A stretch of 64,000 nucleotides of DNA from Planctomycetota bacterium (GTDB taxonomy: Bacteria; Planctomycetota; UBA11346), in contig JBBQSO010000009.1 in assembly GCA_038213805.1 (NCBI GenBank), positions 1-64,000 of the forward strand. Reading direction: 5' to 3'. Both the position numbers and the translations under genes were made by a program. The notes beneath the pieces were generated by a model that was not told the DNA's origin, searched no databases, and worked only from the letters and a program-made list of their open reading frames with translations. This document shows, one piece after another, positions 10,868 through 28,383 of the stretch. Numbering within the stretch: the first letter of the stretch is position 1; every line of letters starts with the position of its first letter.

Positions 10868-11839
10868 ATGCGCGCGCTGACCACCCTGCTTCTCCTCGTC
10901 TTCGGGCTGTGCCTGACGACCCGTGCTCAGGCCGAGGACCACCCCTCGCTGGGCTCGAAGCAGTGCCAGTCCTGCCACCAGGCGATCTACGAGCACGAGA
11001 AGAGCTCGCGCCACTGGCTGTCCTTCAAGGAGTTCGCCAAGGGCGCCGGCGAAGCCATCGCCACCAAGGCCGGCGTGGCCAAGCCCACCGAGGCCGGCAC
11101 CCGCTGCGTCGAGTGCCACGGCCACACCTACCTCAATGACAAGGGCAAGAGCAAGGTCGAGCCGACCTCGTGCGAGGCCTGCCACGGCAAGGCCGGCGAC
11201 TACCTGACCCCGCACAACGTGAAGTACGATGCGGCCAAGAACGGCGCCGATCCGGCCGCCTTCCTCGCCAAGCGCCGTGCCGACAGCGTCGCCGCCGGCA
11301 TGACCGCGCAGTGGCGCCTGAACGGCGGCTACCGCAACTGCTTCAACTGCCACGTCGGCACCGACGAGCCGATCGTCAACGGCGCCGGCCACCCGGTGAT
11401 GAAGGAATTCGAGCTGCTCGCCTTCAGCCAGGGCACCACCCGCCACTGGCACGGTGAGGCTATGAAGCAGGACGGCAGCGGCCGCCAGGGCGCCATCCAC
11501 GTCGCCGGCCAGGCGCTGACCATGCAGAAGGCGCTCGCCGCGGTCGGACTCTCCAAGGACGCCGGCGCCTACCGCACCGGGTACTTCGCCATGGCCAAGG
11601 CCGCCGGCGCCCGTCTCGGCGAACTCGCCGCGCTGCTGCCCGACCGCGCCGAACTCAAGGCCGTAGTCGACGCCGCCGCGCCGCTCGCGACCCTGACCGG
11701 CGACGATGCGGGCAAGTGCGCGGACCTCGCCAAGACCCTCGACCCTCTGGTCGTGGCGCTGCTCGACAAGCTCGACGACACCCCGCTCGCCGACGACGTC
11801 GGCGCCAAGCTCATCCCGGCCAACATGCCGGCGAAGTGA
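10868..11839 (+). CDS. Periplasmic tetraheme cytochrome c (c554-like fold probable)
   Basis: Sec signal peptide; CxxCH motifs CQSCH, CVECH, CEACH, CFNCH; helical C-terminal extension; GAGG RBS. Confidence 0.9.
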   Translation: MRALTTLLLLVFGLCLTTRAQAEDHPSLGSKQCQSCHQAIYEHEKSSRHWLSFKEFAKGAGEAIATKAGVAKPTEAGTRCVECHGHTYLNDKGKSKVEPTSCEACHGKAGDYLTPHNVKYDAAKNGADPAAFLAKRRADSVAAGMTAQWRLNGGYRNCFNCHVGTDEPIVNGAGHPVMKEFELLAFSQGTTRHWHGEAMKQDGSGRQGAIHVAGQALTMQKALAAVGLSKDAGAYRTGYFAMAKAAGARLGELAALLPDRAELKAVVDAAAPLATLTGDDAGKCADLAKTLDPLVVALLDKLDDTPLADDVGAKLIPANMPAK

Positions 11840-11883
11840 GCGCGACCCGGCCCGCGCCGCCCCCGCCGCCCACCAGGTAGACC

Positions 11884-13605
11884 ATGGCCCAAGATGTGCG
11901 CGAGATCACCCGGCCCCAGCGCTGGGCGGTGCCGTTCGATGCCGAGATGACTGACGCCGACGTGGCGCGGGTGGTGGCGCTGCCGCTGTTCGCGCGCATG
12001 GACGCCAAGAAATTCCCGGCCCGCATGCCGCTCGACGGCATCGTCCGCAACGACTGCGCGCTGCGCAGCTACAGCGACCGCCAGCTGGTGGTGCGCCAGG
12101 GCGACTACGGCAGCTCCGCGTTCCTGATCGTCTCCGGCGAGGTCAAGGTCTACCTCGAGGGCGACATTCCCGAGGAAGAACTCGGCCACGACCACGAGCA
12201 CCCCAAGAACCTGCTCACCCAGGTGTGGCGCAACCTCTTCCCGCCGCCCGAGCGCGCGCCCAAGCACCTGCTCGCGGTCAGCAGCGGCGACGCCACGGTG
12301 GCCGGCAGCTCGACGGTCAACGTGTTCTTCCAGGACCTGCCGGCGGTGGGCAAGCGCGGCGGGCCACCGCCGGTGATGGGGCCCGGCACGGTGTTCGGCG
12401 AGATGTCGGCGCTCGGCCGCACGCCGCGCAGCGCCACGGTGGTGGCGACCGGCAGCTGCGAGCTGCTCGAGATCCGCTGGCAGGGCCTGCGCGACCTGCG
12501 CTCCAGCGACAAGGGCTTCAAGGAATACGTCGACGGCATCTACCGCGAACGCAGCCTGACCAGCGACCACTTCCAGACCTCGCCGCTGTTCGCGCCGCTC
12601 GGCGAGACCGGCATCGAGGTGCTGCGCCACGCCGCGATCTTCGAGTCGCACGGCAGTTTCGAGTGGAGCGGGCAGTACAAGAAGGGGCGCCAGGAGCGCC
12701 GCCAGAAGCGCACCGCCGCGCCCAGCAACGAACCCGAGATCTGCGGCCAGACCCAATCCGCCGAATCCGTCTACCTGGTGCGCGCCGGCTTCGCGCGCGT
12801 CAGCCACCGCGTCGGCGTCGGCGAGGTCACCAGCCGCTACATTTCGCGCGGCGACCTCTTCGGCATCGAGGCGCTGCACGCCTACATCAAGGGCAACCGC
12901 GCGCCCATCTACGGCTCGACGCTGCGCGCGCTCGGCTACATCGACGTCATCAAGCTGCCCCTCGCACTGGTGGCGCGCGCGGTCGAGAGTTCGTCGGCGG
13001 CCGCCGCGTGGCTCGCCCAGGGCAACAGCGAACTGCTGCACGAGCAGGACCGCGCCCACCTCGCGCCGCTCAAGGGCGAGATGATGGAGTTCGGCACCGA
13101 GTCGCGCGTCTACAACGGCACCAGCATCATGGCCATCGACCTCGAGCGCTGCACGCGCTGCGACGATTGCGTGCGCGGCTGCTCGAACGCGCACAACGGC
13201 CAGCCGCGCTTCGTGCGTCACGGCGAGGTCAACCAGGGCTTCCTGTTCCCCAACGCCTGCATGCACTGCCAGGACCCGGTGTGCATGATCGGCTGCCCGA
13301 CCGGCGCGATCAGCCGCACCAAGGACGGCGGCCAAGTGGTGGTCAACGACCAGACCTGCATCGGCTGCTCGACCTGCGCCAACAGCTGCCCCTACGACAA
13401 CATCCGCATGGTCGAGCGCAGCCACTATGGCGAAAAGCTGGTCGACCAGAAGGGCAACGCCGTGCTGCGCGCCAGCAAGTGCGACCTGTGCTACGACCAG
13501 GTCGGCGGCCCGGCCTGCGTGCGCGCCTGCCCGCACGACGCGCTCCACCGCGTCGACTTCCCCGACCTGCTCACCCTCACCGAACGCCGGGACCCGCAAT
13601 CGTGA
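11884..13605 (+). CDS. Cytoplasmic tandem cNMP-binding-domain protein with a C-terminal DmsB/NrfC-type 4x[4Fe-4S] ferredoxin
   Basis: VRQGDYGSSAFLIVSGEV...FGEMSAL..TPRSATV (canonical cNMP domain); second degenerate domain VYLVRAGFARV...GDLFGIEAL; CTRCDDCVRGC, CMHCQDPVCMIGCP, CIGCSTCANSCP, KCDLC...PACVRACP. No signal peptide. Confidence 0.92.
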   Translation: MAQDVREITRPQRWAVPFDAEMTDADVARVVALPLFARMDAKKFPARMPLDGIVRNDCALRSYSDRQLVVRQGDYGSSAFLIVSGEVKVYLEGDIPEEELGHDHEHPKNLLTQVWRNLFPPPERAPKHLLAVSSGDATVAGSSTVNVFFQDLPAVGKRGGPPPVMGPGTVFGEMSALGRTPRSATVVATGSCELLEIRWQGLRDLRSSDKGFKEYVDGIYRERSLTSDHFQTSPLFAPLGETGIEVLRHAAIFESHGSFEWSGQYKKGRQERRQKRTAAPSNEPEICGQTQSAESVYLVRAGFARVSHRVGVGEVTSRYISRGDLFGIEALHAYIKGNRAPIYGSTLRALGYIDVIKLPLALVARAVESSSAAAAWLAQGNSELLHEQDRAHLAPLKGEMMEFGTESRVYNGTSIMAIDLERCTRCDDCVRGCSNAHNGQPRFVRHGEVNQGFLFPNACMHCQDPVCMIGCPTGAISRTKDGGQVVVNDQTCIGCSTCANSCPYDNIRMVERSHYGEKLVDQKGNAVLRASKCDLCYDQVGGPACVRACPHDALHRVDFPDLLTLTERRDPQS

Positions 13606-14405
13606 TCGTCGCCTTCTGGCCGCGCCGCCTGCTCGCGCTCTCAGTCGCCGCCGTCGCGGTGGCGGGCGCGGTGGCGTTCGCGCGCATGCGCGCCGCGCAG
13701 CTCGAGGACAACGCCTTCTGGAGCGGCTGGACGCTGCTCGCGATCTTCGTGGTGCTGGCCGTCTACAACCTGCGTAAGCGCGTCTCCAACCTGCCGCTCG
13801 GCACCTCGGCGACCTGGTTGCAGTGGCACATCTACCTGGGCCTGATCGCGATCGCGCTCATCCACGTGCACATCGGCTGGCACATGCCCTCAGGCTCGTT
13901 CAGCTGGCTGCTCTACGGGCTGTTCTGGGCGGTTTCGCTGACCGGCGTGCTCGGCCTCATCCTGACCCGCACCCTGCCGCACCTGCTCACCGCGGTCGGC
14001 AACGAGGTGATCTTCGAGCGCATCGGCGAGCGCGTCGTCGACCTCCACGACGAGGCCGCGGGCATCGTCCAGGGCGTGCTCGGCCGGCCCGAGGGCCAGG
14101 TCCTGGCCGGCTTCTTCATCGACCGTCTCGACCCCTTCCTGCGCCGTCCGCGCTGGGCCTGGCAGGAGAGCCGCGAGCGCTGGCTGACCAGCCAGTGCGC
14201 CAACGTCGCGCGCCTTGCCGGACCCGACCTCGCCGACGCGGTCGCCGACCTCGAGGAGATCGCCCACGAGAAGCTGCTGCTCGACCGCCACTATTTCCTG
14301 CAGGGCATCCTCAAGGGCTGGTTGTTCGTGCACATCCCCTTGGCGACCATGGCGCTCACGGCCGCGGTCTATCATACGGGGATGGTGCTGTGGTTCAGGC
14401 CATGA
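13602..14405 (+). CDS. Inner-membrane protein with two His-x13-His pairs (ferric-reductase-like di-heme b domain probable)
   Basis: GTG start overlapping the upstream TGA (GTGA); corresponds to the C-terminal part of track ORF 12225..14405. About 5 hydrophobic helices; WLQWHIYLGLIAIALIHVH and WLFVHIPLATMALTAAVYH. Confidence 0.8.
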   Translation: MIVAFWPRRLLALSVAAVAVAGAVAFARMRAAQLEDNAFWSGWTLLAIFVVLAVYNLRKRVSNLPLGTSATWLQWHIYLGLIAIALIHVHIGWHMPSGSFSWLLYGLFWAVSLTGVLGLILTRTLPHLLTAVGNEVIFERIGERVVDLHDEAAGIVQGVLGRPEGQVLAGFFIDRLDPFLRRPRWAWQESRERWLTSQCANVARLAGPDLADAVADLEEIAHEKLLLDRHYFLQGILKGWLFVHIPLATMALTAAVYHTGMVLWFRP

Positions 14406-14410
14406 CCGAC

Positions 14411-14538
14411 GTGCGGTGCGGGGTGCGGGGTACGGAGTGCGGAGCGCGACAGCAGACCGCTTTCGACGCGACTCCTTTTCCTGAGCCCGATCTCTGCACC
14501 ACGGTCGCTCCGCACTCCGCACTCCGCACTCCGCACCC
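14411..14538. repeat. Inverted heptamer arrays (GTGCGGR)n ... (CTCCGCA)4 inside the cytochrome operon
   Basis: gtgcggtgcggggtgcggggtacggagtgcggagcg ... cgctccgcactccgcactccgcactccgcaccc. Confidence 0.85.
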
Positions 14539-14568
14539 TGCGGCCGCGATTCCGATGGCGGACACCTG

Positions 14569-16191
14569 ATGGCCCGCAAACTCGACAATCCATTCAGTCA
14601 CAAGAACAGCGGCTACGAACGGCCGCTGCTGAGCCGCCTGCGCCGCGTGCGCGGGCGCTTGGCGCTGGCCGGCTTCACCGCCATGGTCCTGCTGCTCGGT
14701 GCCGCCTACCGCCAAGGCACCGGACTGGTGACCGAGGGCCAGCTGCACAGCAAGCACGCCTTCCTCTCCAAGGACTGCGCGGCCTGCCACGCCGCCGGCA
14801 CGGCCGCGGTACACGGCGATGTCATGACCGCGAACTGCATGCGCTGCCACCGTGACATGAACGCCGAGCCGCACGGCAGCCTGGCGCTCACCGCCGAGGT
14901 CACCGCCGGCCGCGTGCGCGCGGCGACGCCCGAGACGCGCGCCGGTTTCATCGCCTGGGCCAACCAGCTGCCCGGCGGGCGCGTCCACCCGGCCACCCCG
15001 GCCGGGATCAGCTGCAGCACCTGCCACCGCGACCACCGCGGGCAGGACGCCGCACTGATCGGCATGACCGAGGCCGCCTGCCAGGCCTGCCACCGCAGCA
15101 CCTTCGCCGCCTTCGACCGCGGCCACCCCGACTTCGCCGACCTCGCCGCGCAGCAGCGCCGCCAGATCAAGTTCGACCACGCCAGCCATTACGGCGAGCT
15201 CTTCGCCAAGAAGACCAAGGAGCGCCCGGCCTGCACCATCTGCCACGAGGCCCCGACCTCGGCCGAGGTGGTGACGCCGCGCCTCAAGCGCTCCGAGACC
15301 ATCTGCATGGGCTGCCACAGCGATGCGGTGGCGCCCGCCGACCTGCTGCTGCTGACCAGCAAGGGCGACGAGCCGACCGGCTTCGCGCAGGTCGCCGCGC
15401 TGCTGCCCAAGGTCCTGAAGAGCGCCGCGCCCGCGCCCGACATGGCAGCGCTGGCCAAGCCGGGTGCGCTCGCGCAGGTTCTCGGCGTCGCCGCGCCCGC
15501 GCTGCTCGCCGATGGCGACCGCCAGCTCGGCGACGGCGATCTGCTCAAGCGCCTCGCCGCCGGCACCGAGAACAAGGCCGACCCCAGCACCTTCCCGAAC
15601 GGCCGCTGGACGGTGGCCAACGCCGAGAACGAGGACTACGTGCAGCTTACCTACCGCACCACCGGCCACCGCGACGCGCGCGTGGTCGCCTGGTTGGCGT
15701 GGCTGCGCGGGGTCGACCAGACGGCGCGCGGCACGCTCGCCGGCGCCGACCGGGCGGCCTGGACCAAGGCCACCCAGGCGCTGGTCCTCGATCTCACCGC
15801 GATGACCGCGCCGACGGTCAAGGAATCACGCTGCGGGCTCTGCCATTACGTCGGCGTCGATCCCGCCACCGGGGTGTTCGCCGATTTCGCCAAGTCGCCG
15901 GTCGACCGCCACTTCACCCGCACCTACTCGCACTTCGTCCACGCCAGCCAGGCCGAGAAGCAGGGCGCGAGCATCGACTGCCTGACCTGCCACGCTGCCC
16001 TGGCCGCGCCGCCCGCCGCGCCCGCAGATCACGCCAAGGACCCGCGCTGGATCGCCCTGCACCGCGAGCGCCTCGGCCAGGACTGGCAGACCATCGGCAT
16101 CGCCACCTGCCAGTCCTGCCACAACTCCCACGCCGTCCGCCAGGACTGCGCGACCTGCCACCAGTACCACCAGTCGGTGAGCGGCCGATGA
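14569..16191 (+). CDS. Membrane-anchored decaheme cytochrome c
   Basis: N-terminal basic plus hydrophobic anchor; 10 CxxCH motifs (CAACH, CMRCH, CSTCH, CQACH, CTICH, CMGCH, CGLCH, CLTCH, CQSCH, CATCH); c3/c7-like FDHASH and YSHFVH distal-His motifs. Confidence 0.92.
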   Translation: MARKLDNPFSHKNSGYERPLLSRLRRVRGRLALAGFTAMVLLLGAAYRQGTGLVTEGQLHSKHAFLSKDCAACHAAGTAAVHGDVMTANCMRCHRDMNAEPHGSLALTAEVTAGRVRAATPETRAGFIAWANQLPGGRVHPATPAGISCSTCHRDHRGQDAALIGMTEAACQACHRSTFAAFDRGHPDFADLAAQQRRQIKFDHASHYGELFAKKTKERPACTICHEAPTSAEVVTPRLKRSETICMGCHSDAVAPADLLLLTSKGDEPTGFAQVAALLPKVLKSAAPAPDMAALAKPGALAQVLGVAAPALLADGDRQLGDGDLLKRLAAGTENKADPSTFPNGRWTVANAENEDYVQLTYRTTGHRDARVVAWLAWLRGVDQTARGTLAGADRAAWTKATQALVLDLTAMTAPTVKESRCGLCHYVGVDPATGVFADFAKSPVDRHFTRTYSHFVHASQAEKQGASIDCLTCHAALAAPPAAPADHAKDPRWIALHRERLGQDWQTIGIATCQSCHNSHAVRQDCATCHQYHQSVSGR

Positions 16192-16300
16192 CCGCCCGGC
16201 GGGATTGCTGCCCAGCGCGCCTTCAGCAGGCGCCGGCCGACGCTTGCACTCGGCCCGATCCCACGCATCACATGAGCTCGCACCTGCCCAGGAGAACGCG

Positions 16301-18127
16301 ATGACCCTCCGTAGTCACTTTTGGTCGACCCTTCTGCTGCTAGCGTGTGTGGCAACCGCCCGCGTGGGCGCCGCCGAACCCGCGCCCAAGGCGCCGGTCG
16401 CCGGCGACCCGCATGCCGAGCTGTATTCCACCGCTGGGCGCTTCCCCTCGGCGACCACCTGCCGCCCCTGCCACGAGGCGCAGTACCGCCAGTGGTCGGT
16501 GTCGATGCACGCCTTCGCCGAGCTCAGCCCGACCATGGAGGCGCAGAGCGCGGAGATCACCCGCCAGTTCAACGGCACCATCGGAGTGTTCTGCACGCGC
16601 TGCCACACCCCGGTCGGCACCACCGCCGGCGAGTCGGCCAAGCTGCCCAACAGCCAACGCAGCAAGGTCAGCCTCGAGGGCGTGACCTGCATCGTCTGCC
16701 ACCGCATCAACACCAAGTACGGCAAGGTGGTCGGCAACCTCCACCTCGTCGAGGGCGACCAGTTTGCCAAGGTCTACGGCTCGTGGGACGGCGGCGCGGT
16801 CGCCGAGGCGGCCAAGGGCGCCGGCATCGCCACCGCTCCCGGCCAGCAGGGCGCGCAGATGCACGCCACCGCCGACTTCTTCGAGCCGATCACCACCAGC
16901 GCCTTCTGCGCGCAGTGCCACGAGGTCATCAACCCGGGCGGCATCCACCTGCAGGACACCTACAGCCAGTGGCTGGGGTCGAGCTCGGCGCGCGAGGGCG
17001 TGCGCTGCCAGGATTGCCACATGGGCCCGGCGCCCGGCGTGAAGTCGGCCTACGTGACCGGCCCGGCCGCGATCCTGCCCGACGGCCGCAAGACCCGCGA
17101 CCGCCCCCTCTCCAACCACATGATCGTCGGCCCCGAAGTGCCCGCGGAGCACCCCGGCGTGTTCCCGCACGGTGCCGCCAGCAACCGCGGCATCAGCAGT
17201 GACGGCGATGACAAGGACAAGCTCGACGAGGTCCTGCAGGGCGTCGACGACAAGTTCCTGTCTTCCCTAACCAGCGACGACTGGTGGCACTTCGACTACC
17301 GCGCCGGATGGGGCGGTGACGAATTCGAGAAGGCGGCCAAGGGCAAGGACTACCCCTTCCCGCCGCAGTGGAAGGACGAGGCCAAGCGCCGCGCCGCCGG
17401 CGAGTTCGTGAGACAGAACCTCGCCCTGATCAAGGAAGCCGAGACGCGCCGCGCGCTGCTCTTCCGCAACGGCGTGAAGATCGCCAAGCTCGACGTCGAG
17501 CCGACCCATGCGGTCGACAGCTCACTGTCCTTCTCCGTGCGCGTCGAGAGCCTGCTCGCGGCCCACAACATCCCGGGCGGCTTCCCGTGGTTCCGCCAGC
17601 TGTGGCTGCACGTGCAGGTGATCGCGCCGGACGGCAAGGTGACCTGGCAGTCGGGCGACCTTGACCCGGTCAACGACGACCTGCGCGACGGCTTCGATAA
17701 CCGCGTCATGACCGGCGACATCGGCTTCGACGGGCAGCTCTGGAGCGCGCAGGCCTACCTGACCGAGCGCGGCGAGCACGGCGCGGACCGCTCGGTGTTC
17801 TTCCCCATCGCCACCGACGGGGACCCCACCGCCTTCCTGCGCCCGGCCACCGCGCCGGCCTCGCTACGCGGCAAGGACAACGGCTTCCGCATCGACCAGT
17901 CGAAGGTGCTGCCGCCGCTCGGCCACCGCACCCCGGACTACACGGCGCCACGCGACGCCTTCCAGGTGCCGGGCACCTACCAGGTGAAGGCGGACCTGCG
18001 CTTCCGCGGCATGCCGCCCTACTTCTACACCAACCACGGCCTCTACCGCAACGTGCGCTTCGTCACCGAAGCCATCGTCGAGGTGGATTCCAAGACCAGC
18101 GAGCTGAAAGTGGAGGCCGGCAAATGA
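16301..18127 (+). CDS. Periplasmic pentaheme cytochrome c (c554-like N-domain) with C-terminal beta-sandwich
   Basis: AGGAG RBS then ATG 16301; signal peptide; CRPCH..QYRQWSVSMHA, CTRCH, GVTCIVCH, CAQCH, CQDCHM. Confidence 0.9.
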   Translation: MTLRSHFWSTLLLLACVATARVGAAEPAPKAPVAGDPHAELYSTAGRFPSATTCRPCHEAQYRQWSVSMHAFAELSPTMEAQSAEITRQFNGTIGVFCTRCHTPVGTTAGESAKLPNSQRSKVSLEGVTCIVCHRINTKYGKVVGNLHLVEGDQFAKVYGSWDGGAVAEAAKGAGIATAPGQQGAQMHATADFFEPITTSAFCAQCHEVINPGGIHLQDTYSQWLGSSSAREGVRCQDCHMGPAPGVKSAYVTGPAAILPDGRKTRDRPLSNHMIVGPEVPAEHPGVFPHGAASNRGISSDGDDKDKLDEVLQGVDDKFLSSLTSDDWWHFDYRAGWGGDEFEKAAKGKDYPFPPQWKDEAKRRAAGEFVRQNLALIKEAETRRALLFRNGVKIAKLDVEPTHAVDSSLSFSVRVESLLAAHNIPGGFPWFRQLWLHVQVIAPDGKVTWQSGDLDPVNDDLRDGFDNRVMTGDIGFDGQLWSAQAYLTERGEHGADRSVFFPIATDGDPTAFLRPATAPASLRGKDNGFRIDQSKVLPPLGHRTPDYTAPRDAFQVPGTYQVKADLRFRGMPPYFYTNHGLYRNVRFVTEAIVEVDSKTSELKVEAGK

Positions 18128-19608
18128 GACCCCTGATCCTGAGCCTGTCGCTCCTCGCCATCGCCGGCCTGCCCCTGTCCGCCGCCGACGGTCCGACCCC
18201 CAAGCCCAAGCCGGCGGCCGACGCGGACGACGACGACGCCAAGCCGGCGCCCAAGGGCGGCACCGCCGCCGCGCCCGGCGGCGGGCAGAACACCCTGCGC
18301 GCCCCGGTCTTCGAGGACGTGTCGAACGTGACCCGCTCCTTCATCGATCCCGACCTAATCCCGGACGCGCCCAACCCGATCACCATCTTCGGCGATGGCT
18401 TCTGGGAACCGGGCACGCTGCAGAACGGCCGCTTCACCCCAAATCTGATCGTCTACGGCGACCTGCGCACGGGCTACTCCTACGCCGAGAAGCCCGACCC
18501 GGGCAGCGACACCGACGTCGCGAACGCGCGCACCCGCCTGACCCTCGAGACCGACCTGCAGCTGACCGCCACCGAGCGCATCCACGCGCGGTTCACGCCC
18601 ATCTCCAACAACGGCACCGACACCGGCATCCTGTTCCGCCCCGATTACGACGCCAAGTTCGCGCACAGCCTCAAGCCGCAGACGCTGTTCTTCGAGGGTG
18701 AGCTCGACAGCATCCTCTCCGACTTCGGCGGCTCGGCGCAGCACGACGCCACCGACCTCAACTACGCGATCGCCATCGGCAAGTTCCCGCTTGAGCTGAA
18801 CAACGGCTACCTGATCAGCGACATCTTCACCGGCGCCGGCGTCACCAAGAACAACATCACCGTGCCGTGGGCGGCCAACTTCGGCATCGGCGCGTTCTAC
18901 GCCGTGCATGACGTCGACGCCGACGCCGGAACCGGCTTCCCCACCGACGGTCGCGCCTTCGCGCTGGCCGGCCTGCACGGCTTCGCCGACGTCGCCGACG
19001 TGCGCGTCGAGACTTCGCTGGTCTACCTCGACGTCCGCGATGGCGACTTCGTGGTCGGCGGGACCGATCGCCGCCAATACTACGGCGCTGTGTCGTTCGC
19101 CTGGCTGCGCGGGCCGATCGGACAGGGCCTGCACCTCCTCGGCAAGCTCGGCGACCCCGACGTGACCGGCAAGGGCGCACTGGTGGTCTACGAGAGCAAC
19201 GTGCGCCTGACCCCGATCCGCGTCGACGGTGGCCTGTACGCCATGCTCGACGCGTTCGTCGGCACCCCGCACTGGAATTCGATCAGCGGCAACCTCAACC
19301 AGGTGGGCACGACCTTCCAGACCGACAACCTCACCGGCTTCCCGAACCAGCGCGGCGACGGGCGCGACGAGGCGGGCGTGGCGCTGGCGCTGCAGTACAA
19401 GACCCTGCGCCGCCGTCTGCACTTCATCCCCGAGGTCTCCTACGTCGACGACCGCAGCGATGCGAACAACGACACGACCGCGTTCGGGTTGCGCGTGAAT
19501 TACGGGTTCGGTGTCCGTTACGTGCTGCGCATGGACCTGCGCCACTTCATCCCCAAGGTCGGCGAGTCATTCAACGCCGGACGCGCAGAGTTCCAGATCA
19601 AGTTCTGA
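18124..19608 (+). CDS. Outer-membrane beta-barrel (porin-like) protein
   Basis: Signal peptide, alternating amphipathic strands rich in G/F/Y/D/N, C-terminal GRAEFQIKF with terminal Phe (BAM-type signal). ATGA overlap with the upstream cytochrome. Confidence 0.8.
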   Translation: MRPLILSLSLLAIAGLPLSAADGPTPKPKPAADADDDDAKPAPKGGTAAAPGGGQNTLRAPVFEDVSNVTRSFIDPDLIPDAPNPITIFGDGFWEPGTLQNGRFTPNLIVYGDLRTGYSYAEKPDPGSDTDVANARTRLTLETDLQLTATERIHARFTPISNNGTDTGILFRPDYDAKFAHSLKPQTLFFEGELDSILSDFGGSAQHDATDLNYAIAIGKFPLELNNGYLISDIFTGAGVTKNNITVPWAANFGIGAFYAVHDVDADAGTGFPTDGRAFALAGLHGFADVADVRVETSLVYLDVRDGDFVVGGTDRRQYYGAVSFAWLRGPIGQGLHLLGKLGDPDVTGKGALVVYESNVRLTPIRVDGGLYAMLDAFVGTPHWNSISGNLNQVGTTFQTDNLTGFPNQRGDGRDEAGVALALQYKTLRRRLHFIPEVSYVDDRSDANNDTTAFGLRVNYGFGVRYVLRMDLRHFIPKVGESFNAGRAEFQIKF

Positions 19609-19635
19609 ACTCCCAGGAATAAAGGCAGCGCCCGC

Positions 19636-20877
19636 ATGGCCGACTCCGCACCCGCCGCTGCACCCGTGGCCGTTCCTGTCGCGTCGCCGGCCGCCGCGCC
19701 GGTGGCGGCCCCGGCTCTGGCGGTGGCCGCCACCGGCATGCCCGTGCCAGGGCCGTTCGCATCAACCCTGCCCAAGCCGGGCATGTTTCTTGATGGCCTG
19801 CTGCTGCTGGCCGCGGTGGCGGTGACGCTGATCATCGCCGAGACCAGTCTGCACCTGGCGGCCATCCGCCGCGATCGGCGCGCGCGCCTGAATGCCGCGG
19901 GCAAACGCACGCTCAATCTCCAGTCGCTGGCCGAGCGCGCTGCCCCGGATGGCGGTCAGGTCACCATGTTCCGCGCCCCCGACGCTGCGCGTGGGTCGGT
20001 CAGTCACGGCTCGGTGCGCACGCAGATGCCGCCCGGCATGGCCGCAGCCGCACCGGCGCACGCGGCGGCCGCCGTCACCCCGGTCGAGGGCGAGGCGCCC
20101 AAGGTGCCCGCCGGCTTCGAGCCCTACCGGGTCATCGCCGTCATCGACGAGGCGCCCGGCATCAAGACCTTCCGCTTCGCCCACTCCGAGGGCAAGCCGC
20201 TCGCACCCTTCCTCGCCGGCCAGTATCTGACCGTGATGGTCAAGCCCGCGGGAGCGGCGAAGCCAGCGATCCGCAACTACTCGCTATCGAGCGCGCCGCA
20301 CCAGAGCGAATACTACCAGATCTCGGTCAAGGCCGTGGACAAGGGCCTGGTCTCGAACCACGTCCACCAGAACTTCCGCGCCGGCGACCTGGTCGACCTG
20401 AAGAAGCCCGCCGGGAAGTTCTTCCTCGACCCCGCGCAACGCCTCGACCTGGCGCTGGTCGCGGGCGGCATCGGCATCACGCCGGTGTGGAGCATGACCC
20501 AGGAGTTCCTCTCGGTCGGCCGCCGCAACCGCATCGACCTGTTCTACGGCTGCCGCACCGAGGCCGACGTCGCCTTCGCCAAGGAATTGAAGGAGGTCTC
20601 GGCCAAGCACGAGAACTTCCGCCTGCACATCGTGCTCAGCCGCGCCGACGGCGGCTGGACCGGTCTGACCGGCCACGTCGATCTGGCCCTGATCCGCCGC
20701 GTCCTGCTCTACAACCTGCGCGGCCGCGCCTACTACCTGTGCGGCCCCGCCCAGATGATGACCGACATCACTGAAGGCCTTGAGAACCAGGGCGTCCCGA
20801 CCAGCGACATCCACTACGAGGCCTTCGGCCCCGCCGCGCCCCGCAAGAAGAAGGAAGGCGACGCGCCGGCGCATTGA
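19636..20877 (+). CDS. Membrane-anchored FNR-family FAD/NAD(P)H oxidoreductase lacking a 2Fe-2S domain
   Basis: RNYSLSS, GLVSNHVH, AGGIGITP, YLCGPAQM, HYEAF; N-terminal TM segment (FLDGLLLLAAVAVTLIIAE) and Ala/Pro linker. Confidence 0.9.
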   Translation: MADSAPAAAPVAVPVASPAAAPVAAPALAVAATGMPVPGPFASTLPKPGMFLDGLLLLAAVAVTLIIAETSLHLAAIRRDRRARLNAAGKRTLNLQSLAERAAPDGGQVTMFRAPDAARGSVSHGSVRTQMPPGMAAAAPAHAAAAVTPVEGEAPKVPAGFEPYRVIAVIDEAPGIKTFRFAHSEGKPLAPFLAGQYLTVMVKPAGAAKPAIRNYSLSSAPHQSEYYQISVKAVDKGLVSNHVHQNFRAGDLVDLKKPAGKFFLDPAQRLDLALVAGGIGITPVWSMTQEFLSVGRRNRIDLFYGCRTEADVAFAKELKEVSAKHENFRLHIVLSRADGGWTGLTGHVDLALIRRVLLYNLRGRAYYLCGPAQMMTDITEGLENQGVPTSDIHYEAFGPAAPRKKKEGDAPAH

Positions 20878-20904: not shown

Positions 20905-21255
20905 TCACACCTGGCGCTGGATCAGCGCGCCCAGCATGCGTCCGATCTGGACGATCTCATCCTGGAGCCGCGCGGACGCCGCGGCGGGGCAGAGGCCCAG
21001 GTCGCCAGCGAGGATGAGGTGGCTGCGCAGTTCCCCCGCGGACGCCTTGGCGACGCGCAGGAAGTAGGCGAACTCGCGGACACCATCGCGCTCCGCGCCT
21101 TCGGCAATGTTGGCGGAGACGCTGAGTACCGCGCGCTGGATTTGATCGCGGAAGGCGTAGTCCTGCGCGAGCGCGCTGTCGCGGACGAGGCCATACACTG
21201 CGCCGGTGAGTTTCCGCGCGCGTTGCCAGACGATGAGCTTTTCGAAATCAGCCAT
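20905..21255 (-). CDS. Four-helix-bundle protein (23S rRNA IVP / Avd-like family)
   Basis: MADFEKLIVWQRA...DQIQRAVLSVSANIAEG...FAYFLRVAKASAGELRSHL; GGAGG RBS. Confidence 0.92.
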   Translation of the reverse strand: MADFEKLIVWQRARKLTGAVYGLVRDSALAQDYAFRDQIQRAVLSVSANIAEGAERDGVREFAYFLRVAKASAGELRSHLILAGDLGLCPAAASARLQDEIVQIGRMLGALIQRQV

Positions 21256-22816: not shown

Positions 22817-25066
22817 TCACGCGTAGCTGTGCAACCCCGCCAACCTGACATTCACCCAGTACCAGTTGAATACCATCACCAGCATCGCCGCCAGCGACAC
22901 CCAGGCGGTGGCTGCGCCGCGGTTGGCGGGGCGTACGACCAGGCGCAGGTGGATGAGGATCACGAAGACCACCCAGGTGAGCAGGGCGAAGACCTCCTTC
23001 GGGTCCCAGCCCCACGGGCGGCCCCAGCTTTCGGCGGCCCACACGGCGCCGAGGGACAGACCGATCCACAGGATGACCATGGCCAGCGAGTTGATCGCGA
23101 AGGTGGCGCGATCCCAGGCGATGGAGCGCGGATCGTCCCAGCGCAGGCCCAGGCGCATCAGCAGGTAGGCTACCGACATCAGGCCGCCGAGCGCGATGAT
23201 GCCGTAGCTGGAGACCACGCAGGCGGTGTGCACGCGCAGCCAGAACTCGGAGAGGATCGGCATCGCCGGGCTGATGAAGGCGTTGATGTCATGGCGCTCG
23301 AGGAACACCTGGGCGAGCACGATGATGCAGCCGAACAGCGCCGCGCCGAGGGCCAGGGCGCCACGCGCGCCGCTGGCGGGCAGCGGCGCCAGTACGTCGG
23401 AGCCTGCGGCGAGCGCGGGCTGGCCGGCGTGGATGGCGTTGTAGCGGTTGCGGCTCCGGCGCGCGCCCATGCCGATGCCAAGTTCGCCGATCAGCGCCAC
23501 CAGGCTGCACAGCAGCGAGGCCGCGGCCATCGACTCATAGAGGTTGGACAGCGGCACGCGCTGGGCCAGGTCCCAGCGGATGACGAAGGCCGCGATCTGT
23601 CCAACGAAGCCGGACAGCGCGAGGGCGTAGCCGAGGGCCAGCGCCCAGCCGATGCGACCGATCGCGCCGAGCGCGAGGAAGGGCACCGCGAACAGGAACA
23701 GCCAAGCGACGAAGCTGAAGCCGCCGAGCTGCCAGTAGCGCATCTCGAGCGCGGTGTCGACGCCCAGCGCCGGCTTGCCGCGCGCGACCAGGTCGCGGTC
23801 GAGCAGCGCGCGCATCACGCCCTGGGCCGCGACGAAGGCGTCGACGGCGGGTTGCAGGCCGGTGGTCGGCGCGCCTGGCCGGCGTGCCGCCGCCCACGCG
23901 GCGCCGAGATCATTCCAGGCCCTGCTGCCCGCCGCGAGCGCCGCGTCGACCGCGGCGCGTTCGCCGGGTTCGGCCAGCTCGGTGTCCTCGATGGCGAGCT
24001 TTGTCCAGCGCTGGCGCAGCTGGGTCAGGCCGCTGACCACCGCGTTGGCGTCGTCGGCGTCGAGGCCGAGGCGCGCCACCGCGGTCAGCGGGCTGGTGGC
24101 GAGGTCAGCGACCAGCGCGTCGTCGATGGTACCGCTGCCGGCGGCCTTCCACAGCTGCCACAGGGTGGTGAGGTTGAGCTGGCGGGTCTCGTCCTCCTTG
24201 AGGCCGAGGTGGGCGGCGGTCTCGGGCGAAAGCGGCAGCAGGCTCCACGTCTGCTGGCCGTACGCGTCGAGGTCGCCCTTGGCGGCGCGCGCCAGGCGCA
24301 CGTAATCGGTGAGGGCCTGGGCGAAGCCGGGCCCGACCTCGGCGGTGTCGTACCAACGGTCATGGAGGCCGGCGGGCAGCGGGAAGAGCTTCAGCGCAAA
24401 GAGCAGGCGGCCCGGATCGAGCAGATCACGCGCGCCCTGCACCTGGTTGATCGCCTTGGTCTTGGCGGTCTGGCGGCCGAGGGTGTCGAGGGCGGTCTGG
24501 ATCTTCTCGTCGACCACCTGGCTCGGGGTCAGGCGGCCGAGCCTGGCGAGACGCTCGCGGTCGGGCGCGGACATCACCAGGGCGAGGTCGTGGAGCAGCT
24601 CGGCGTGCTTGACCACGACGATCGGCTGGTCGTTGTAGGCGGTGCGGCAGAACAGCAGGTCGAGCAGGCTGGTCAGCGGGGTGTGGCCGCGGTAATCGTA
24701 GCTGCTCTGCGCGTCGGCGATGCCGGCGAAGGAGATCTGACTGGTGATGCCGTCGAGCACCTCCATGGCGAAGGCGTGGATCGGCTTGTAACGGCCGCCG
24801 TGCTGCACCGGCAGGGCATCGAGCGCGCGCAGGTCGAGGCCCTGCACGGTCTCCGCGATCGGGCGCAACACGCCGTCGGTGTGGGCGGCGGTGGCGACGG
24901 TGGAAACGGACGGCGCGCCCGCGCCCACGCTGGCCGGAGCCGGCGCGTGCGTGGACTCGTTCGCCGGAGGCGCGACCACGGGCGCCGCGTCGGCGGCGTG
25001 CAGGCGGCCGTAGCCGAGGCCGGCGGCCAGGCAGATCAGGGCAAGGAACGGGGCGCGGGCGTTCAT
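22817..25066 (-). CDS. ccsA: Cytochrome c biogenesis protein CcsA/ResC (system II) with large N-terminal periplasmic domain
   Basis: PLSNLYES, WLRVH, GAVWAAESWGRPWGWDPKE (WWD domain), GLHSYA; ATGA overlap with the upstream gene. Confidence 0.93.
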   Translation of the reverse strand: MNARAPFLALICLAAGLGYGRLHAADAAPVVAPPANESTHAPAPASVGAGAPSVSTVATAAHTDGVLRPIAETVQGLDLRALDALPVQHGGRYKPIHAFAMEVLDGITSQISFAGIADAQSSYDYRGHTPLTSLLDLLFCRTAYNDQPIVVVKHAELLHDLALVMSAPDRERLARLGRLTPSQVVDEKIQTALDTLGRQTAKTKAINQVQGARDLLDPGRLLFALKLFPLPAGLHDRWYDTAEVGPGFAQALTDYVRLARAAKGDLDAYGQQTWSLLPLSPETAAHLGLKEDETRQLNLTTLWQLWKAAGSGTIDDALVADLATSPLTAVARLGLDADDANAVVSGLTQLRQRWTKLAIEDTELAEPGERAAVDAALAAGSRAWNDLGAAWAAARRPGAPTTGLQPAVDAFVAAQGVMRALLDRDLVARGKPALGVDTALEMRYWQLGGFSFVAWLFLFAVPFLALGAIGRIGWALALGYALALSGFVGQIAAFVIRWDLAQRVPLSNLYESMAAASLLCSLVALIGELGIGMGARRSRNRYNAIHAGQPALAAGSDVLAPLPASGARGALALGAALFGCIIVLAQVFLERHDINAFISPAMPILSEFWLRVHTACVVSSYGIIALGGLMSVAYLLMRLGLRWDDPRSIAWDRATFAINSLAMVILWIGLSLGAVWAAESWGRPWGWDPKEVFALLTWVVFVILIHLRLVVRPANRGAATAWVSLAAMLVMVFNWYWVNVRLAGLHSYA

Positions 25067-27393
25067 GCGGACCTCTTGGACAGAGCCATCGCCAGGCCGC
25101 TCCAGGCCATGCCGATGGCGAGCATGATGGCGGCGGCGAGCAGCGCCGCGCCGGCCGGGCGGTTGCCCACGCCCAGCACGGTCAGGGCCTGGAACTCCGG
25201 ATCCCAGTTGGCCTGGAAGAAGAACATGCCATCCCAGGCGAGCGGATAGTTCATGTGAATGGTGGCGGCGTCGGGCGTGACCTGTCCGGGCTTGCCATAG
25301 GCGACGTCGCACAGGTATTCCGAGATCGCCTGACCGCCCGGGCGGCGCGGCGCGTCGAAGCCGGTCATCCAGATCGGGCCGGGCAGGGTGAGCGGCTCGC
25401 GGCTGTAGCAGAGCTCGACGTCGCCGACGCCGGGCACGCTCAGCGCGGTCGGGCGCGAGGCGTAGCCGCCCAGCGTGCCGCTGCCGTCGCCCATGGACTG
25501 CGGCAGATGCGGGAAGGGCGTGTACGGCACCCAGGTCGAGACGCTCGACGGATTGGGCCCGCCGCTGGTGGCGGTGACCTGCACCAAGCTCTGGAAGCTG
25601 CCGACCGCCATGCGGCTCTGCTGCTGCTCATTCGGAACCGGCACCGGCTCGGTGACCTCGCGCGGGTGGTCGACGCGCGCCTTGAGGCGGACGCGGATCT
25701 TGTCGTTCGACCAGCGCCCGACCGCGTCTGTGCCGACCGCGATGGTCAGCTCCTGGAGATTGCGCTGCGGCTCGCCGATCCACAGCGTCAGCGCGCCACC
25801 GGGCGCCTCGGCGAAGACCAGGCGGGTCTGCGCTGCCTCCTCGTCGCTCAGCGAGGCCTTCTCGATGGCGACCGCTGGGAAGCGGCCGAGCAGCGCCTGC
25901 TTGAGTTCCGCCGCCGCCGCCGCGTCCTTAAGCCGCAGCCAAACCAGGGGCTGGTCGAGGAAGGCGGCGGGGTCGCTGGCGAGGTGCACCTTGAGCGGGA
26001 AGCTCTGGCCGCCGTTCTCGCTGCTCAGCACCAGGTCGAGGGTCGGCGCCAGCGCCACGGTGGGATCGTCGATGAGGTGCTTTTCGAGATTGGCGTAGGG
26101 CGCGAAGCCGGTGATCGCGTAGCTGGTGGTGCCGACCGTGCCGAGGGCGATGGCCAGGGCCTTGCCGCCCGCGATGTGGGTGCCGTGGTCGCGGTAGCGC
26201 GGCAGGCCGGGAATGGGGAGCGCGGTGCCGGGGTTGACCATCGGCGCCAGGGCGGGGTCGTCGTGGTCGCTTTCAGTGCGCACCCACAGTGCGGGCAGAT
26301 CCTGGTGGTAGCCGATGGTCCACTTCGCCGGTGCGAGCACGATCGACGCGACGCGCGCATCGGGGAGCGTCTTGATGCGCGCGCGCTGGAAGCGCGTCAG
26401 GGTCGGTTGGCCGACGATGGCGCTGCCGCTCTCCTGGCCGCCGGCACCCTTGATGGTCCACGCCACCATGGTGCCCTTTTGGCCCTTGAAGCCGTCGGCG
26501 AGCAGCGGCCAGTCGGGGGTGATGCCGGTGATCTCGAGCGAGCGCTCGCCCTGAGCGAGCTTTTCGGTGGTCTTGCCCTTGAGCACCAGCGCGGTCTCAA
26601 GGATCTTTGCGCCGGCAGCGTCGACGGCCCAGATGTGGTCCTGGTCGACCACCACGCCTTGGAACTCGGGCAGCCAGCTGGTCGGGGTGCGGCCGTCGAG
26701 GGTGTACTGGGTCAGCTCGGGGCGGCCCTCAAGCAGGGTGGCGGTGAAGCTGCTGCCTTTGGTGCCGGCGGCGGCGCCAGCGGCGGGCGGCAGGTCGACC
26801 TTGACCATCACCGCCCAGACCTCCTGGGCGTCCTTGGCGGTGCCGCCATCGCTCTGCACGCGCCACTTCGGCATCACCGCCTCGACCTTGGCGGTGATGT
26901 CGCCGGCGCTCGCGACGTAGCCGGGATTGGGCAGCAGGCGGGTGGTGCCGCCGGCGGTGGCCAGGTCGATGTAGTGGCGCACCAGCAGCGCTTCACCCTC
27001 GATCTTGTTGGCGAAGTAGAGGCCAGAGGTGACGACCACGCCGACCACCGAGAAGTGGGTGAGATGGGCCCCGAAGCGGGCCCACGTCCAGGGGATGCGC
27101 ACCGCGCTGGCGGTGAGCAGGCAGACGCAGATCGCACCCCACAGCACACCCGACACCCAGCCGTTGAACCAGTGCATCTCGTTGAGTTCGAGAGCCTGGC
27201 GGACCTCGTAATAGGCCGAACCGAGCGCCTGGTGGATGAAGACCAGCACCAGGAGGGTGATCGACACCCAGGGACTGGATATGCGCACCGCCCAGCGGCG
27301 CAGGCTGGTGCGGGCGGGTGGGGCGATGGCAGGGGCGGCGGGCACGGCGGCGGTGGTCACTGGCGGCTCGGGGAGGAGGAAGGTTTCACACAC
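25063..27393 (-). CDS. Cytochrome c biogenesis protein CcsB/ResB-like
   Basis: Three N-terminal TMs including GAHLTHFS, long periplasmic region, IHMNYPLAWDGMFFFQANW and a C-terminal TM; coupled to ccsA. Start uncertain. Confidence 0.8.
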   Translation of the reverse strand: MCETFLLPEPPVTTAAVPAAPAIAPPARTSLRRWAVRISSPWVSITLLVLVFIHQALGSAYYEVRQALELNEMHWFNGWVSGVLWGAICVCLLTASAVRIPWTWARFGAHLTHFSVVGVVVTSGLYFANKIEGEALLVRHYIDLATAGGTTRLLPNPGYVASAGDITAKVEAVMPKWRVQSDGGTAKDAQEVWAVMVKVDLPPAAGAAAGTKGSSFTATLLEGRPELTQYTLDGRTPTSWLPEFQGVVVDQDHIWAVDAAGAKILETALVLKGKTTEKLAQGERSLEITGITPDWPLLADGFKGQKGTMVAWTIKGAGGQESGSAIVGQPTLTRFQRARIKTLPDARVASIVLAPAKWTIGYHQDLPALWVRTESDHDDPALAPMVNPGTALPIPGLPRYRDHGTHIAGGKALAIALGTVGTTSYAITGFAPYANLEKHLIDDPTVALAPTLDLVLSSENGGQSFPLKVHLASDPAAFLDQPLVWLRLKDAAAAAELKQALLGRFPAVAIEKASLSDEEAAQTRLVFAEAPGGALTLWIGEPQRNLQELTIAVGTDAVGRWSNDKIRVRLKARVDHPREVTEPVPVPNEQQQSRMAVGSFQSLVQVTATSGGPNPSSVSTWVPYTPFPHLPQSMGDGSGTLGGYASRPTALSVPGVGDVELCYSREPLTLPGPIWMTGFDAPRRPGGQAISEYLCDVAYGKPGQVTPDAATIHMNYPLAWDGMFFFQANWDPEFQALTVLGVGNRPAGAALLAAAIMLAIGMAWSGLAMALSKRSA

Positions 27394-27537: not shown

Positions 27538-28383
27538 ATGACGCAACTCATTCCCGTGCTCACCTGCGCCGGCGGCCTGGGCGATGGCGAGTTCTTCGTG
27601 CTCGGCGACCGCGCCGACGTGGTCATCGGGCGCAGCCGGACCTGCGACATCAGCTTCCAGCGCTTCCGTAAATTCCTCGCCCTGCCGGAAATGGAGCGCA
27701 AGCAGCGCGACGACTTCAATTCCGCGGTCAGCCGCCGCCACCTGCGCATCATAATCAGCGGCAGCAAGGTCACTGCCGAGAACCTGTCCTCGGCCGGCAG
27801 TTTCTGCAACGAGGTACGTTTCGATTCCACGCGCGAACACGACCTGAAGGACGGCCCCCTGCAGCTGCGCCTGGGCCAAGCCGAAGAGAAATTCAAGATC
27901 AGCCTGCTCACACCCGAGCAGGTCGAAGCCCTGGTCGCGCCGACGCAGATGCCGATGGGCCGCGGGCGCGGCGAACCGCGCACCGACAACCTGCCCCTGC
28001 CCTTCGCCGAGGATCCCACGCCCGCGGCCAATCCCGCGTTGACGCCATCGCCACGCGGCGACGGGTCGCGCGCCGCGCCCATGGCCCCGCGCGGCGGGTC
28101 GCCGGCCGGCGGTCCGAGCATCACCTTCGCCGGGCCCGGTGGACGCAAGTCCCTGCCGTTCACCCCGGGTGACGAGATGCTCGCGTTCCTCGAGGGCGCT
28201 AACGCCCCCTGCGCCGACCGCGGCTGCGGCGTCGGCTCCTGCCACACCTGCAAGCTCAAGGTCCTCAAGGGCCGCGAGCACGTCACCATGATCACCGATT
28301 ACGACGACAGCGGCCTGGAGAAGAATGAGATCCTGCCGTGCTGTTCGTCAGTGAAGGGACCGGTCGAGGTCGAGAAGGGGTGA
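27538..28383 (+). CDS. FHA domain fused to a plant-type [2Fe-2S] ferredoxin
   Basis: VVIGRSRTCDI...VSRRH (FHA GR and SxxH motifs); Pro/Gly linker; GCGVGSCHTC (C-x4-C-x2-C)...ILPCCS. Confidence 0.85.
   Translation: MTQLIPVLTCAGGLGDGEFFVLGDRADVVIGRSRTCDISFQRFRKFLALPEMERKQRDDFNSAVSRRHLRIIISGSKVTAENLSSAGSFCNEVRFDSTREHDLKDGPLQLRLGQAEEKFKISLLTPEQVEALVAPTQMPMGRGRGEPRTDNLPLPFAEDPTPAANPALTPSPRGDGSRAAPMAPRGGSPAGGPSITFAGPGGRKSLPFTPGDEMLAFLEGANAPCADRGCGVGSCHTCKLKVLKGREHVTMITDYDDSGLEKNEILPCCSSVKGPVEVEKG

What the first reader, a model, noticed from the sequence alone, without database searches (positions are those of the whole stretch)
10868..20877. Seven-gene putative envelope-spanning electron conduit with a cyclic-nucleotide input
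Seen: one co-oriented operon encoding a tetraheme c, a cNMP-cNMP-4x[4Fe-4S] protein, a His-paired membrane protein, an anchored decaheme c, a pentaheme c, an OM beta-barrel and a TM-anchored FNR (19 CxxCH in total). System II maturation genes start ~2 kb downstream. Known: porin-cytochrome conduits (MtrAB, Pcc) usually draw electrons from quinol via CymA/NrfD-type proteins; no NrfD or molybdopterin subunit is present here. Inference: NAD(P)H <-> FAD <-> Fe-S <-> heme b <-> multiheme chain <-> porin, a possibly quinone-independent wire gated by cNMP. Direction and terminal substrate are unknown. This is the best candidate for an undescribed system.
Basis: partly seen in the sequence, partly recalled or inferred. 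Interest (0 to 1): 0.88.

Follow-up and report, generated by a model that had tools for sequence, protein, structure and literature searches.

The report
Trimmed copy of PCC4/ptd cytochrome operon
These seven genes match a cluster already named twice (PCC4 in 2017, ptdABCDEFG in 2023) but not yet tested, which likely carries electrons from NADH inside the cell to an enzyme-like five-heme cytochrome beside an outer-membrane channel; this copy has lost two small cytoplasmic domains that most of its relatives keep.

Summary
In detail: seven co-oriented genes with 4+10+5 = 19 CxxCH motifs. The system is not undescribed. It matches, part for part, PCC4 subgroup II (PMC5566968) and ptdABCDEFG (bioRxiv 2023.11.21.568154), here in the order DEFG-ABC; neither paper tested a function, and this scan already noted it in at least 195 other genomes.

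What I add: (1) the pentaheme PtdA belongs to the MccSep/c552 enzyme scaffold, has only four distal His for five hemes, and lacks the catalytic Cys and Sec (Glu at the Cys site in 111 of 119; Gln here); (2) the barrel model best matches small-solute channels; (3) PtdE has four Fe-S clusters and one intact cNMP pocket; (4) this lineage's PtdC lacks the [2Fe-2S] domain found in 43 of 48 homologues, its PtdG lacks a Cys-rich cytoplasmic domain, and a nearby FHA gene carries a [2Fe-2S] domain only in the three ptd-bearing congeners of eleven.

Best reading (about 0.45): an NAD(P)H-fed, quinone-bypassing chain ending at a periplasmic catalytic heme, rather than a wire to the cell surface. Direction, substrate and cNMP gating are untested.

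The parts
10868..11839 (+). ptdD: exported tetraheme cytochrome c, c554-like; four conserved distal His (H49, H116, H175, H193), likely an electron carrier
   Evidence: 4 CxxCH; PF13435; profile's best solved relative is c554 1BVB, E 5.6e-15; conserved His
11884..13605 (+). ptdE: cytoplasmic protein, two cNMP-binding folds (first intact, second degenerate) plus a DmsB/HycB-type 4x[4Fe-4S] domain
   Evidence: PF00027, PF13247; HycB3 7QV7 E 2e-19; 14 Cys in 44 of 44 and 2 in 43 of 44; G172 42/44, E173 39/44, R182 40/44
13602..14405 (+). ptdF / PCC4 inner-membrane protein: five predicted TM helices, two W-x3-H-x13-H motifs, likely di-heme cytochrome b
   Evidence: W72 H76 H90 and W240 H244 H258 invariant in 69 of 69; model pLDDT 93; motif as in PMC5566968
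14569..16191 (+). ptdG: membrane-anchored decaheme cytochrome c; lacks the Cys-rich N-terminal cytoplasmic segment of most homologues
   Evidence: 10 CxxCH and TM 29-47; eight further invariant His in 17 of 17; 31 of 46 homologues have 6 or more Cys before heme 1, the near-identical L002 has none, nor does the window (all 20 Cys lie in CxxCH)
16301..18127 (+). ptdA: exported pentaheme cytochrome of the MccSep / T. tepidum c552 scaffold; four distal His; no Cys or Sec at the heme-2 site (Q218, F428)
   Evidence: 5ZE8 E 6e-9; profile hits 5ZE8 and MccSep; ExtKL model below cut-off; conservation; ATG 16301 follows AGGAG
18124..19608 (+). ptdB: outer-membrane beta-barrel (about 18 strands by my count), C-terminal Phe
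   Evidence: AlphaFold model; best matches MOMP 5LDT Z 26.5 rmsd 3.5 over 334 aa, OpdQ, OccD2, AlgE; F494 invariant in 32 of 32
19636..20877 (+). ptdC: TM-anchored FAD/NAD(P)-binding reductase; ends before the C-terminal [2Fe-2S] domain of homologues
   Evidence: PF00970, PF00175; best NCBIfam flavohemoprotein, below cut-off; alignment; 43 of 48 homologues carry the ferredoxin
27538..28383 (+). Candidate eighth partner outside the finding: FHA domain fused to a [2Fe-2S] ferredoxin, divergent from resB
   Evidence: PF00498 and PF00111; fusion only in G000, G303, G307, the three of 11 congeners with ptdA; link to the cluster is inferred
22817..27393 (-). Resident System II cytochrome c maturation genes ccsA and resB (flank, not part of the cluster)
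   Evidence: PF01578, PF05140; ccsA present in 5 of 5 congeners without ptdA; resB-ccsA-sppA contiguous in G142

Best explanation
The seven genes match the published but untested PCC4/ptdABCDEFG cluster part for part, and they likely form a chain that takes electrons from cytoplasmic NAD(P)H across the inner membrane to an enzyme-like pentaheme cytochrome, predicted to reduce a small molecule admitted by the neighbouring outer-membrane channel. Steps: NAD(P)H reduces the FAD of PtdC (domains shown; direction inferred from this reductase family). Electrons pass, through a [2Fe-2S] ferredoxin (built in for most relatives; here possibly the separate FHA-ferredoxin, inferred), to the four [4Fe-4S] clusters of PtdE (ligands shown), whose intact cNMP pocket would tune the step (pocket shown, gating untested). 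They cross the membrane on the two b hemes of PtdF (His pattern shown, hemes inferred) without needing quinone (untested), enter the anchored decaheme PtdG and the c554-like PtdD, and end at heme 2 of PtdA, whose distal side has Glu or Gln in place of the Cys of MccSep (alignment shown, chemistry inferred). The substrate is not identified; a small nitrogen or oxygen oxidant is my guess, polysulfide is unlikely.
For: Identity: descriptions match every gene; PtdA hits the same c552 the ptd paper names; PtdB homologues include Hyphomicrobium, a PCC4 host; alphaproteobacterial loci L003-L005 have the exact A-G order. Enzyme end: PtdA profile hits MccSep and 5ZE8; MccSep is a periplasmic reductase whose heme 2 is the active site; PtdA has four invariant non-motif His for five hemes; the position aligned to the 5ZE8 Cys is E in 111, H in 5, Q in 3 of 119, and no Cys lies near either site. 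PtdD resembles c554, the carrier of hydroxylamine oxidoreductase (recalled). PtdB model matches solute channels at Z 22-26. A and B travel together: B present in 61 of 62 metagenome loci with at least 1 kb downstream of A, also without C-G nearby. Host has two class III nucleotide cyclases.
Against: No substrate, direction or interaction was tested. The Cys-site alignment is off by one between 5ZE8 (E218) and MccSep (L217); Glu could simply be a sixth ligand, and His in 5 of 119 would make a plain bis-His wire heme. The same pentaheme scaffold is related to archaeal nanowire cytochromes (PMC11976967 passages). PMC5566968 models inward flow to quinone. The fold search on PtdF gave no clear ferric-reductase match. 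A quinol NO reductase is in the host but in 0 of 4 other ptd genomes tested, so an NO link is not general.
Confidence: 0.45

Rival explanations
1. Outward extracellular electron transfer: the same NAD(P)H-fed chain ends in a porin-cytochrome conduit that reduces minerals, humics, electrodes or partner cells.
For: Porin next to multiheme genes, as in Mtr and Pcc; 19 c hemes; A and B almost always adjacent; scaffold related to nanowire cytochromes; His at the heme-2 site in 5 of 119.
Against: No extracellular cytochrome in PCC4. Barrel's best matches are solute channels. PtdA's solved relatives are globular, with a cap and an Ig-like stem. The decaheme is inner-membrane anchored and scores 25 bits against a DmsE/MtrA cut-off of 192.
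Confidence: 0.25
2. Inward flow: a periplasmic or extracellular donor (Fe(II), Mn(II), a reduced N or S compound) is oxidised at PtdAB, and electrons reach the quinone pool through PtdF or, uphill, NAD(P)+ through PtdE and PtdC (the PCC4 model).
For: PCC4 was found in iron-oxidiser genomes and modelled inward; ptd is in Nitrospirales; PtdD is c554-like; host has aa3 and cbb3 oxidases.
Against: Reducing NAD(P)+ from such donors needs an energy input for which the cluster has no evident part (inference). The cluster occurs widely in Planctomycetota, Verrucomicrobia and Alphaproteobacteria with no sign of lithotrophy tested here.
Confidence: 0.18
3. A cNMP-switched source of reducing power for the periplasm (redox balance, repair or metal acquisition, as with NOX or MsrQ-type modules), with PtdAB a loosely attached module and not the obligate end point.
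For: ABC and DEFG behave as separable blocks: inverted, convergent, permuted, and AB often stands without DEFG within about 9 kb. H-x13-H pairs as in ferric-reductase domains; PF01794 weakly in 7 of 69.
Against: All seven genes stay together in 19 of 80 metagenome loci (many too short to hold them) and 14 of 39 genome loci despite rearrangement.
Confidence: 0.12

Closest known systems
PCC4 subgroup II (He et al. 2017, PMC5566968; passages on PCC4 read)
   Same: Porin; periplasmic cytochromes with 4, 5 and 10 hemes; five-TM inner-membrane protein with two WX3HX13H motifs; pfam13247 Fe-S gene directly upstream of it; a redox gene; reported in Planctomycetes.
   Different: Here the reductase is last, not upstream of the tetraheme; TM4 motif reads TGXXG; all genes co-oriented. 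The passages read do not mention the cNMP domains. The paper models inward flow to quinone.
ptdABCDEFG (Elbon, Stewart and Glass, bioRxiv 10.1101/2023.11.21.568154; passages and section 8 read)
   Same: All seven parts one-to-one; PtdA related to T. tepidum c552; PtdC flavohemoprotein-like; function unknown.
   Different: Order DEFG-ABC; 16 Cys indicate four [4Fe-4S] clusters where the paper says two; PtdC lacks the [2Fe-2S] domain and PtdG the Cys-rich segment that most homologues I fetched carry.
MccSep / ExtKL polysulfide reductase (bioRxiv 10.1101/2025.11.18.688581; parts 1-3 of 6 read) and T. tepidum c552 (PDB 5ZE8)
   Same: Five CxxCH, four bis-His hemes, the H-x-x-P-x-G loop of the C-terminal domain; ExtKL is encoded near a porin gene, extI.
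   Different: No heme-ligating Cys and no Sec/Cys in PtdA (Glu/Gln/His and Phe/Leu instead), so the polysulfide chemistry cannot be the same.
MtrCAB / Pcc porin-cytochrome conduits
   Same: Porin gene beside multiheme genes, including a decaheme.
   Different: Decaheme is membrane-anchored and far below the DmsE/MtrA cut-off; barrel of about 18 strands against 26 for MtrB (recalled); own cytoplasmic flavin/Fe-S input in place of CymA.
NOX / MsrQ-Fre ferric-reductase-domain systems (recalled; FRD comparison also in PMC5566968)
   Same: FNR-type reductase plus a di-heme membrane protein with H-x13-H on TM3 and TM5.
   Different: Extra 4x[4Fe-4S]/cNMP subunit, a 110-residue helical insertion between TM4 and TM5, and a multiheme output chain.

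Membership tests
PCC4 subgroup II / ptdABCDEFG | Three cytochromes c with 4, 5 and 10 heme motifs | tested here: met
PCC4 subgroup II / ptdABCDEFG | Porin gene directly after the pentaheme | tested here: met
   4-bp overlap; barrel model and fold matches
PCC4 subgroup II / ptdABCDEFG | Five-TM inner-membrane protein with two WX3HX13H motifs on TM3 and TM5 | tested here: met
   W72-H76-H90, W240-H244-H258; four TM by hydropathy, fifth from the model's last helix
PCC4 subgroup II / ptdABCDEFG | SGXXG on TM4 | tested here: inconclusive
   Window has TGVLG; both Gly invariant, S in 60 and T in 9 of 69
PCC4 subgroup II / ptdABCDEFG | cNMP-binding / pfam13247 Fe-S gene directly upstream of the membrane gene | tested here: met
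PCC4 subgroup II / ptdABCDEFG | FAD/NAD(P)-binding oxidoreductase in the cluster | tested here: met
   homologous to the reductase at position C of A-G ordered loci
PCC4 subgroup II / ptdABCDEFG | All seven genes homologous to loci with the published A-G order | tested here: met
   L003-L005, best tblastn E from 1e-12 to 1e-138 per gene; window order DEFG-ABC also in L008 and L132
PCC4 subgroup II / ptdABCDEFG | Sequence match to the papers' own listed accessions | not testable with these tools
   Journal version not held; bioRxiv supplements closed; PCC4 Table 5 gave no rows. Indirect: 5ZE8 hit, Hyphomicrobium porins
MccSep / ExtKL | Five CxxCH on the c552/MccSep scaffold | tested here: met
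MccSep / ExtKL | Cys distal ligand of heme 2 (C239) | tested here: not met
   No Cys in residues 210-225 in 119 of 119
MccSep / ExtKL | Catalytic Sec/Cys (U325) | tested here: not met
   F in 99, L in 17, gap in 3 of 119
MtrAB-type conduit | DmsE/MtrA-family decaheme | tested here: not met
   TIGR03508 25.4 bits against cut-off 192.2
MtrAB-type conduit | Large barrel that sheaths a cytochrome | tested here: inconclusive
   About 18 strands by my count; top matches are solute channels; no complex prediction was available
Ferric-reductase-domain (NOX/MsrQ) membrane subunit | Two H-x13-H pairs on TM3 and TM5 | tested here: met
Ferric-reductase-domain (NOX/MsrQ) membrane subunit | FRD fold | tested here: inconclusive
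   STEAP4 Z 7.4, rmsd 4.1, 147 aligned at rank 50 and designed di-heme bundle 4D2 Z 8.2, rmsd 2.5, 102 aligned, both within helical-bundle noise; PF01794 weak in 7 of 69

The most novel reading that the evidence does not exclude
Ptd/PCC4 is not a mineral wire but a new class of cyclic-nucleotide-switched, NAD(P)H-driven periplasmic reductase, with a His/Glu (here His/Gln) catalytic heme on the MccSep scaffold fed through its own channel; in this planctomycete lineage the ferredoxin link has moved onto an FHA protein, putting the electron input under phosphothreonine control as well.
Probability: 0.15. Interest if true: 0.78.

Novelty: new member of a known kind. Interest (0 to 1): 0.36.

Why it matters
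The cluster is widespread (a PtdA match in 44 of 301 genomes of this phylum; ptdAB highly transcribed in oxygen-deficient seawater) and is counted in the literature as a candidate extracellular-electron-transfer system without a test. If PtdA is an enzyme and PtdB a substrate channel, genome surveys that read this cluster as metal redox capacity are misreading it, and a widespread periplasmic reductase awaits its substrate. This copy is a compact, single-orientation version of about 10 kb, which suits heterologous work, but as a discovery it is one more instance of a named cluster.

Tried and rejected
Complex prediction of PtdB with PtdA was not available, so barrel-cytochrome binding is open. 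No RNA holder was listed; no sigma-70 promoter-like site and chance-level terminators, so co-transcription rests on spacing alone. Fold searches with PtdF gave no clear match. MtrB was not among the 50 rows for the barrel, which does not exclude kinship. A Foldseek run for the barrel was not obtained. The Atlas did not hold the window's barrel; its homologue P0071 gave an alginate-export-porin cluster at 0.92, family on 31% of members, a lead only. I suspected the small-genome family f49 with perfect A-G order was anammox; HZS_alpha was found in 0 of 4. The Verrucomicrobia porin-MHC cluster of PMC5615132 (passages) is a different system (octaheme). The anammox EET preprint (passages) names an upregulated pentaheme that I could not tie to PtdA. 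A Nod link as in the ptd paper's host: the host's enzyme keeps HLWVEG and the His pair of a normal qNor. ccs genes as part of the island: rejected. I found no functional test of PCC4 or Ptd in searches; subscription journals are not covered. A check on strand numbers of Pcc porins gave nothing.
Full report
Observation. The seven reading frames are present and co-oriented from 10868 to 20877. Heme motifs number 4, 10 and 5, far above the genome's six-frame background of 0.038 per 1000 aa. Genes overlap or lie 27-163 bp apart. Pfam gives c554-like, cNMP plus Fer4_11, c7/c3-like, c554-like and FAD/NAD-binding domains; the membrane protein and the barrel have no Pfam or NCBIfam family. The host is a planctomycete: named near-identical loci at 82-99% identity are Planctomycetota.

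Already in print. A paper search led to the ptd preprint, which describes a pentaheme with a beta-sandwich (A), porin (B), FAD/NAD(P) oxidoreductase (C), tetraheme (D), cNMP-binding Fe-S protein (E), ferric-reductase-like membrane protein (F) and decaheme (G), function unknown (passages and section 8 read). A note of this scan pointed to PCC4, which I checked: porin, cytochromes with 4, 5 and 10 hemes, a five-TM protein with two WX3HX13H motifs and, in subgroup II, a pfam13247 gene upstream of it (passages read). The window has each of these. Its pentaheme hits 5ZE8, the c552 that the ptd paper names, and homologues of its barrel include Hyphomicrobium proteins. I could not see either paper's accession lists, so membership rests on content, motifs and homology to loci with the published order. 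The scan has 346 earlier notes with the word ptdABCDEFG in at least 195 genomes; these are unchecked and not independent support.

Conservation. Alphaproteobacterial loci L003-L005 carry all seven homologues in the order A-G, and Haloferula L008 in the window's order DEFG-ABC. A PtdA match at E up to 1e-20 was found in 44 of 301 genomes of the phylum including the window's own; about ten of these are weak. I fetched 35 regions around the stronger matches and 80 metagenome loci, the best of 522. With profiles built from the genome loci (so circular for them), B was present in 61 of 62 metagenome loci with at least 1 kb downstream of A and all seven genes in 19 of 80, many loci being too short; in genome loci the counts were 36 of 38 and 14 of 39 (one duplicate locus dropped, and L002 missed because its barrel gene is frameshifted). 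ABC and DEFG move as blocks: colinear, permuted, divergent or convergent. Within the host's family ptdA is patchy, 3 of 24 relatives (most are incomplete). In congener G142 resB, ccsA and sppA are contiguous, whereas the window has the cluster between ccsA and sppA, so it was gained here or lost there; the maturation genes are resident.

Input side. PtdC is a TM-anchored FAD/NAD(P) reductase. Homologues end in a [2Fe-2S] ferredoxin in 43 of 48 cases; of the five without, three are cut by a contig end, one is half of a frameshifted gene, and one is the near-identical L002. The window's gene stops before this domain. Its first cNMP fold keeps G172, E173 and R182; the second lacks the Glu and the Pro-Arg pair. 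The host has two class III cyclases. PtdF has invariant H76/H90 and H244/H258 in 69 of 69; with positive charges at the start and after TM2 and TM4, I infer one heme near each face. The model is confident but fold searches were inconclusive. PtdG is an anchored decaheme with eight further invariant His; 31 of 46 homologues have a Cys-rich segment before the anchor, several more a half-length one, and this lineage none.

A possible eighth part. By a pattern and profile scan of the laid genome, the best and only clear ferredoxin of this type is at window 27538-28383, fused to an FHA domain. Of 11 genomes of the genus, the fusion is in the three that have ptdA; the other eight have FHA matches only, and in the seven loci examined the orthologue beside resB ends without a ferredoxin. 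The three are 92-98% alike and count as one event; in G307 the two halves lie on separate contigs; the domain is only about 33% identical to PtdC ferredoxins. It is a lead, not a finding. Some distant PtdE proteins have long insertions, two of which look FHA-like by eye.

Output side. PtdD's closest solved relative is cytochrome c554 and it has four conserved distal His, which fits a carrier. PtdA's profile hits 5ZE8 and MccSep. MccSep is a periplasmic polysulfide reductase with four bis-His hemes and a His/Cys heme 2 next to Sec (parts 1-3 of 6 read). PtdA has four invariant non-motif His; at the position aligned with the 5ZE8 Cys it has Glu in 111, His in 5 and Gln in 3 of 119, the window being Gln; the Sec position is Phe or Leu; no Cys lies near either site. 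The register against MccSep is uncertain by one residue. The simplest reading is a retained active-site heme with other chemistry. Against this, the scaffold is related to nanowire cytochromes (passages) and the His variants could be plain wires. The barrel model (mean pLDDT 75.5) has about 18 strands by my count, and its best matches are MOMP, the OprD/Occ channels, AlgE and sugar porins at Z 19-26; these are solute channels (recalled). No complex prediction could be run.

Host. Outside the cluster the genome has two other ORFs with five heme motifs and none with more: an ActA/QrcA-like pentaheme near an aa3 oxidase, and a cbb3/SoxX-like one. It also has a cbb3 oxidase, a qNor next to Rrf2 and hemerythrin genes, and NasA- and FdhF-like molybdoenzymes. 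This is an oxygen-respiring organism equipped for low oxygen and NO, not a multiheme-rich metal reducer.

Verdict. Identity with PCC4/ptd: about 0.95. Mechanism: NAD(P)H-fed chain to a periplasmic catalytic heme 0.45; outward conduit 0.25; inward flow 0.18; general periplasmic reductant supply 0.12. A new member of a described, untested kind, with lineage-specific trims. Interest 0.36.

Noticed in passing
window 27538-28383 (+): FHA domain fused to a [2Fe-2S] ferredoxin; congeners without ptdA have the FHA part only at the same site beside resB.
   Followed up: partly
window 21601-22590 (-): RIO1-family kinase between the cluster and ccsA; present in G303, not found in the G142 stretch that lacks the cluster. 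Could be the kinase for the FHA protein; untested.
   Followed up: partly
window 20905-21411 (-): Four-helix-bundle (23S rRNA IVP family) gene right after ptdC; three paralogues in the genome; not found at this site in L002.
   Followed up: no
window 14406-14568 and near 21450-21560: Intergenic runs of short 7-base repeats, the first arranged as an inverted pair between ptdF and ptdG; possibly REP-like stem-loops affecting mRNA stability.
   Followed up: no
L062, L064, L065, L055 (family f49): Small-genome planctomycetes with perfect A-G order whose PtdA has His at the heme-2 site; G166 has two tandem ptdA copies. Not anammox by HZS_alpha.
   Followed up: partly
L006 and L053 (ptdE), L006 (ptdC): PtdE with long insertions between the cNMP folds that look FHA-like by eye; L006 has two ptdC genes in tandem.
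   Followed up: no
PtdG homologues, e.g. L003 12467-15325, L043 16996-19251: N-terminal cytoplasmic segment with 8-11 Cys in two similar repeats (one repeat in f49), a possible metal-binding domain not mentioned in the passages I read.
   Followed up: partly
L054 11459-16062: A divergent E-F module with a 17-heme cytochrome next to ptdAB.
   Followed up: no
L002 16282-17741: The ptdB gene of the closest relative has two short frame changes near residues 392-412; assembly error or decay not resolved.
   Followed up: no
L157 3511-7513 (G000 contig C14): Rrf2 regulator, hemerythrin and intact qNor in a row: an NO-detoxification unit.
   Followed up: partly
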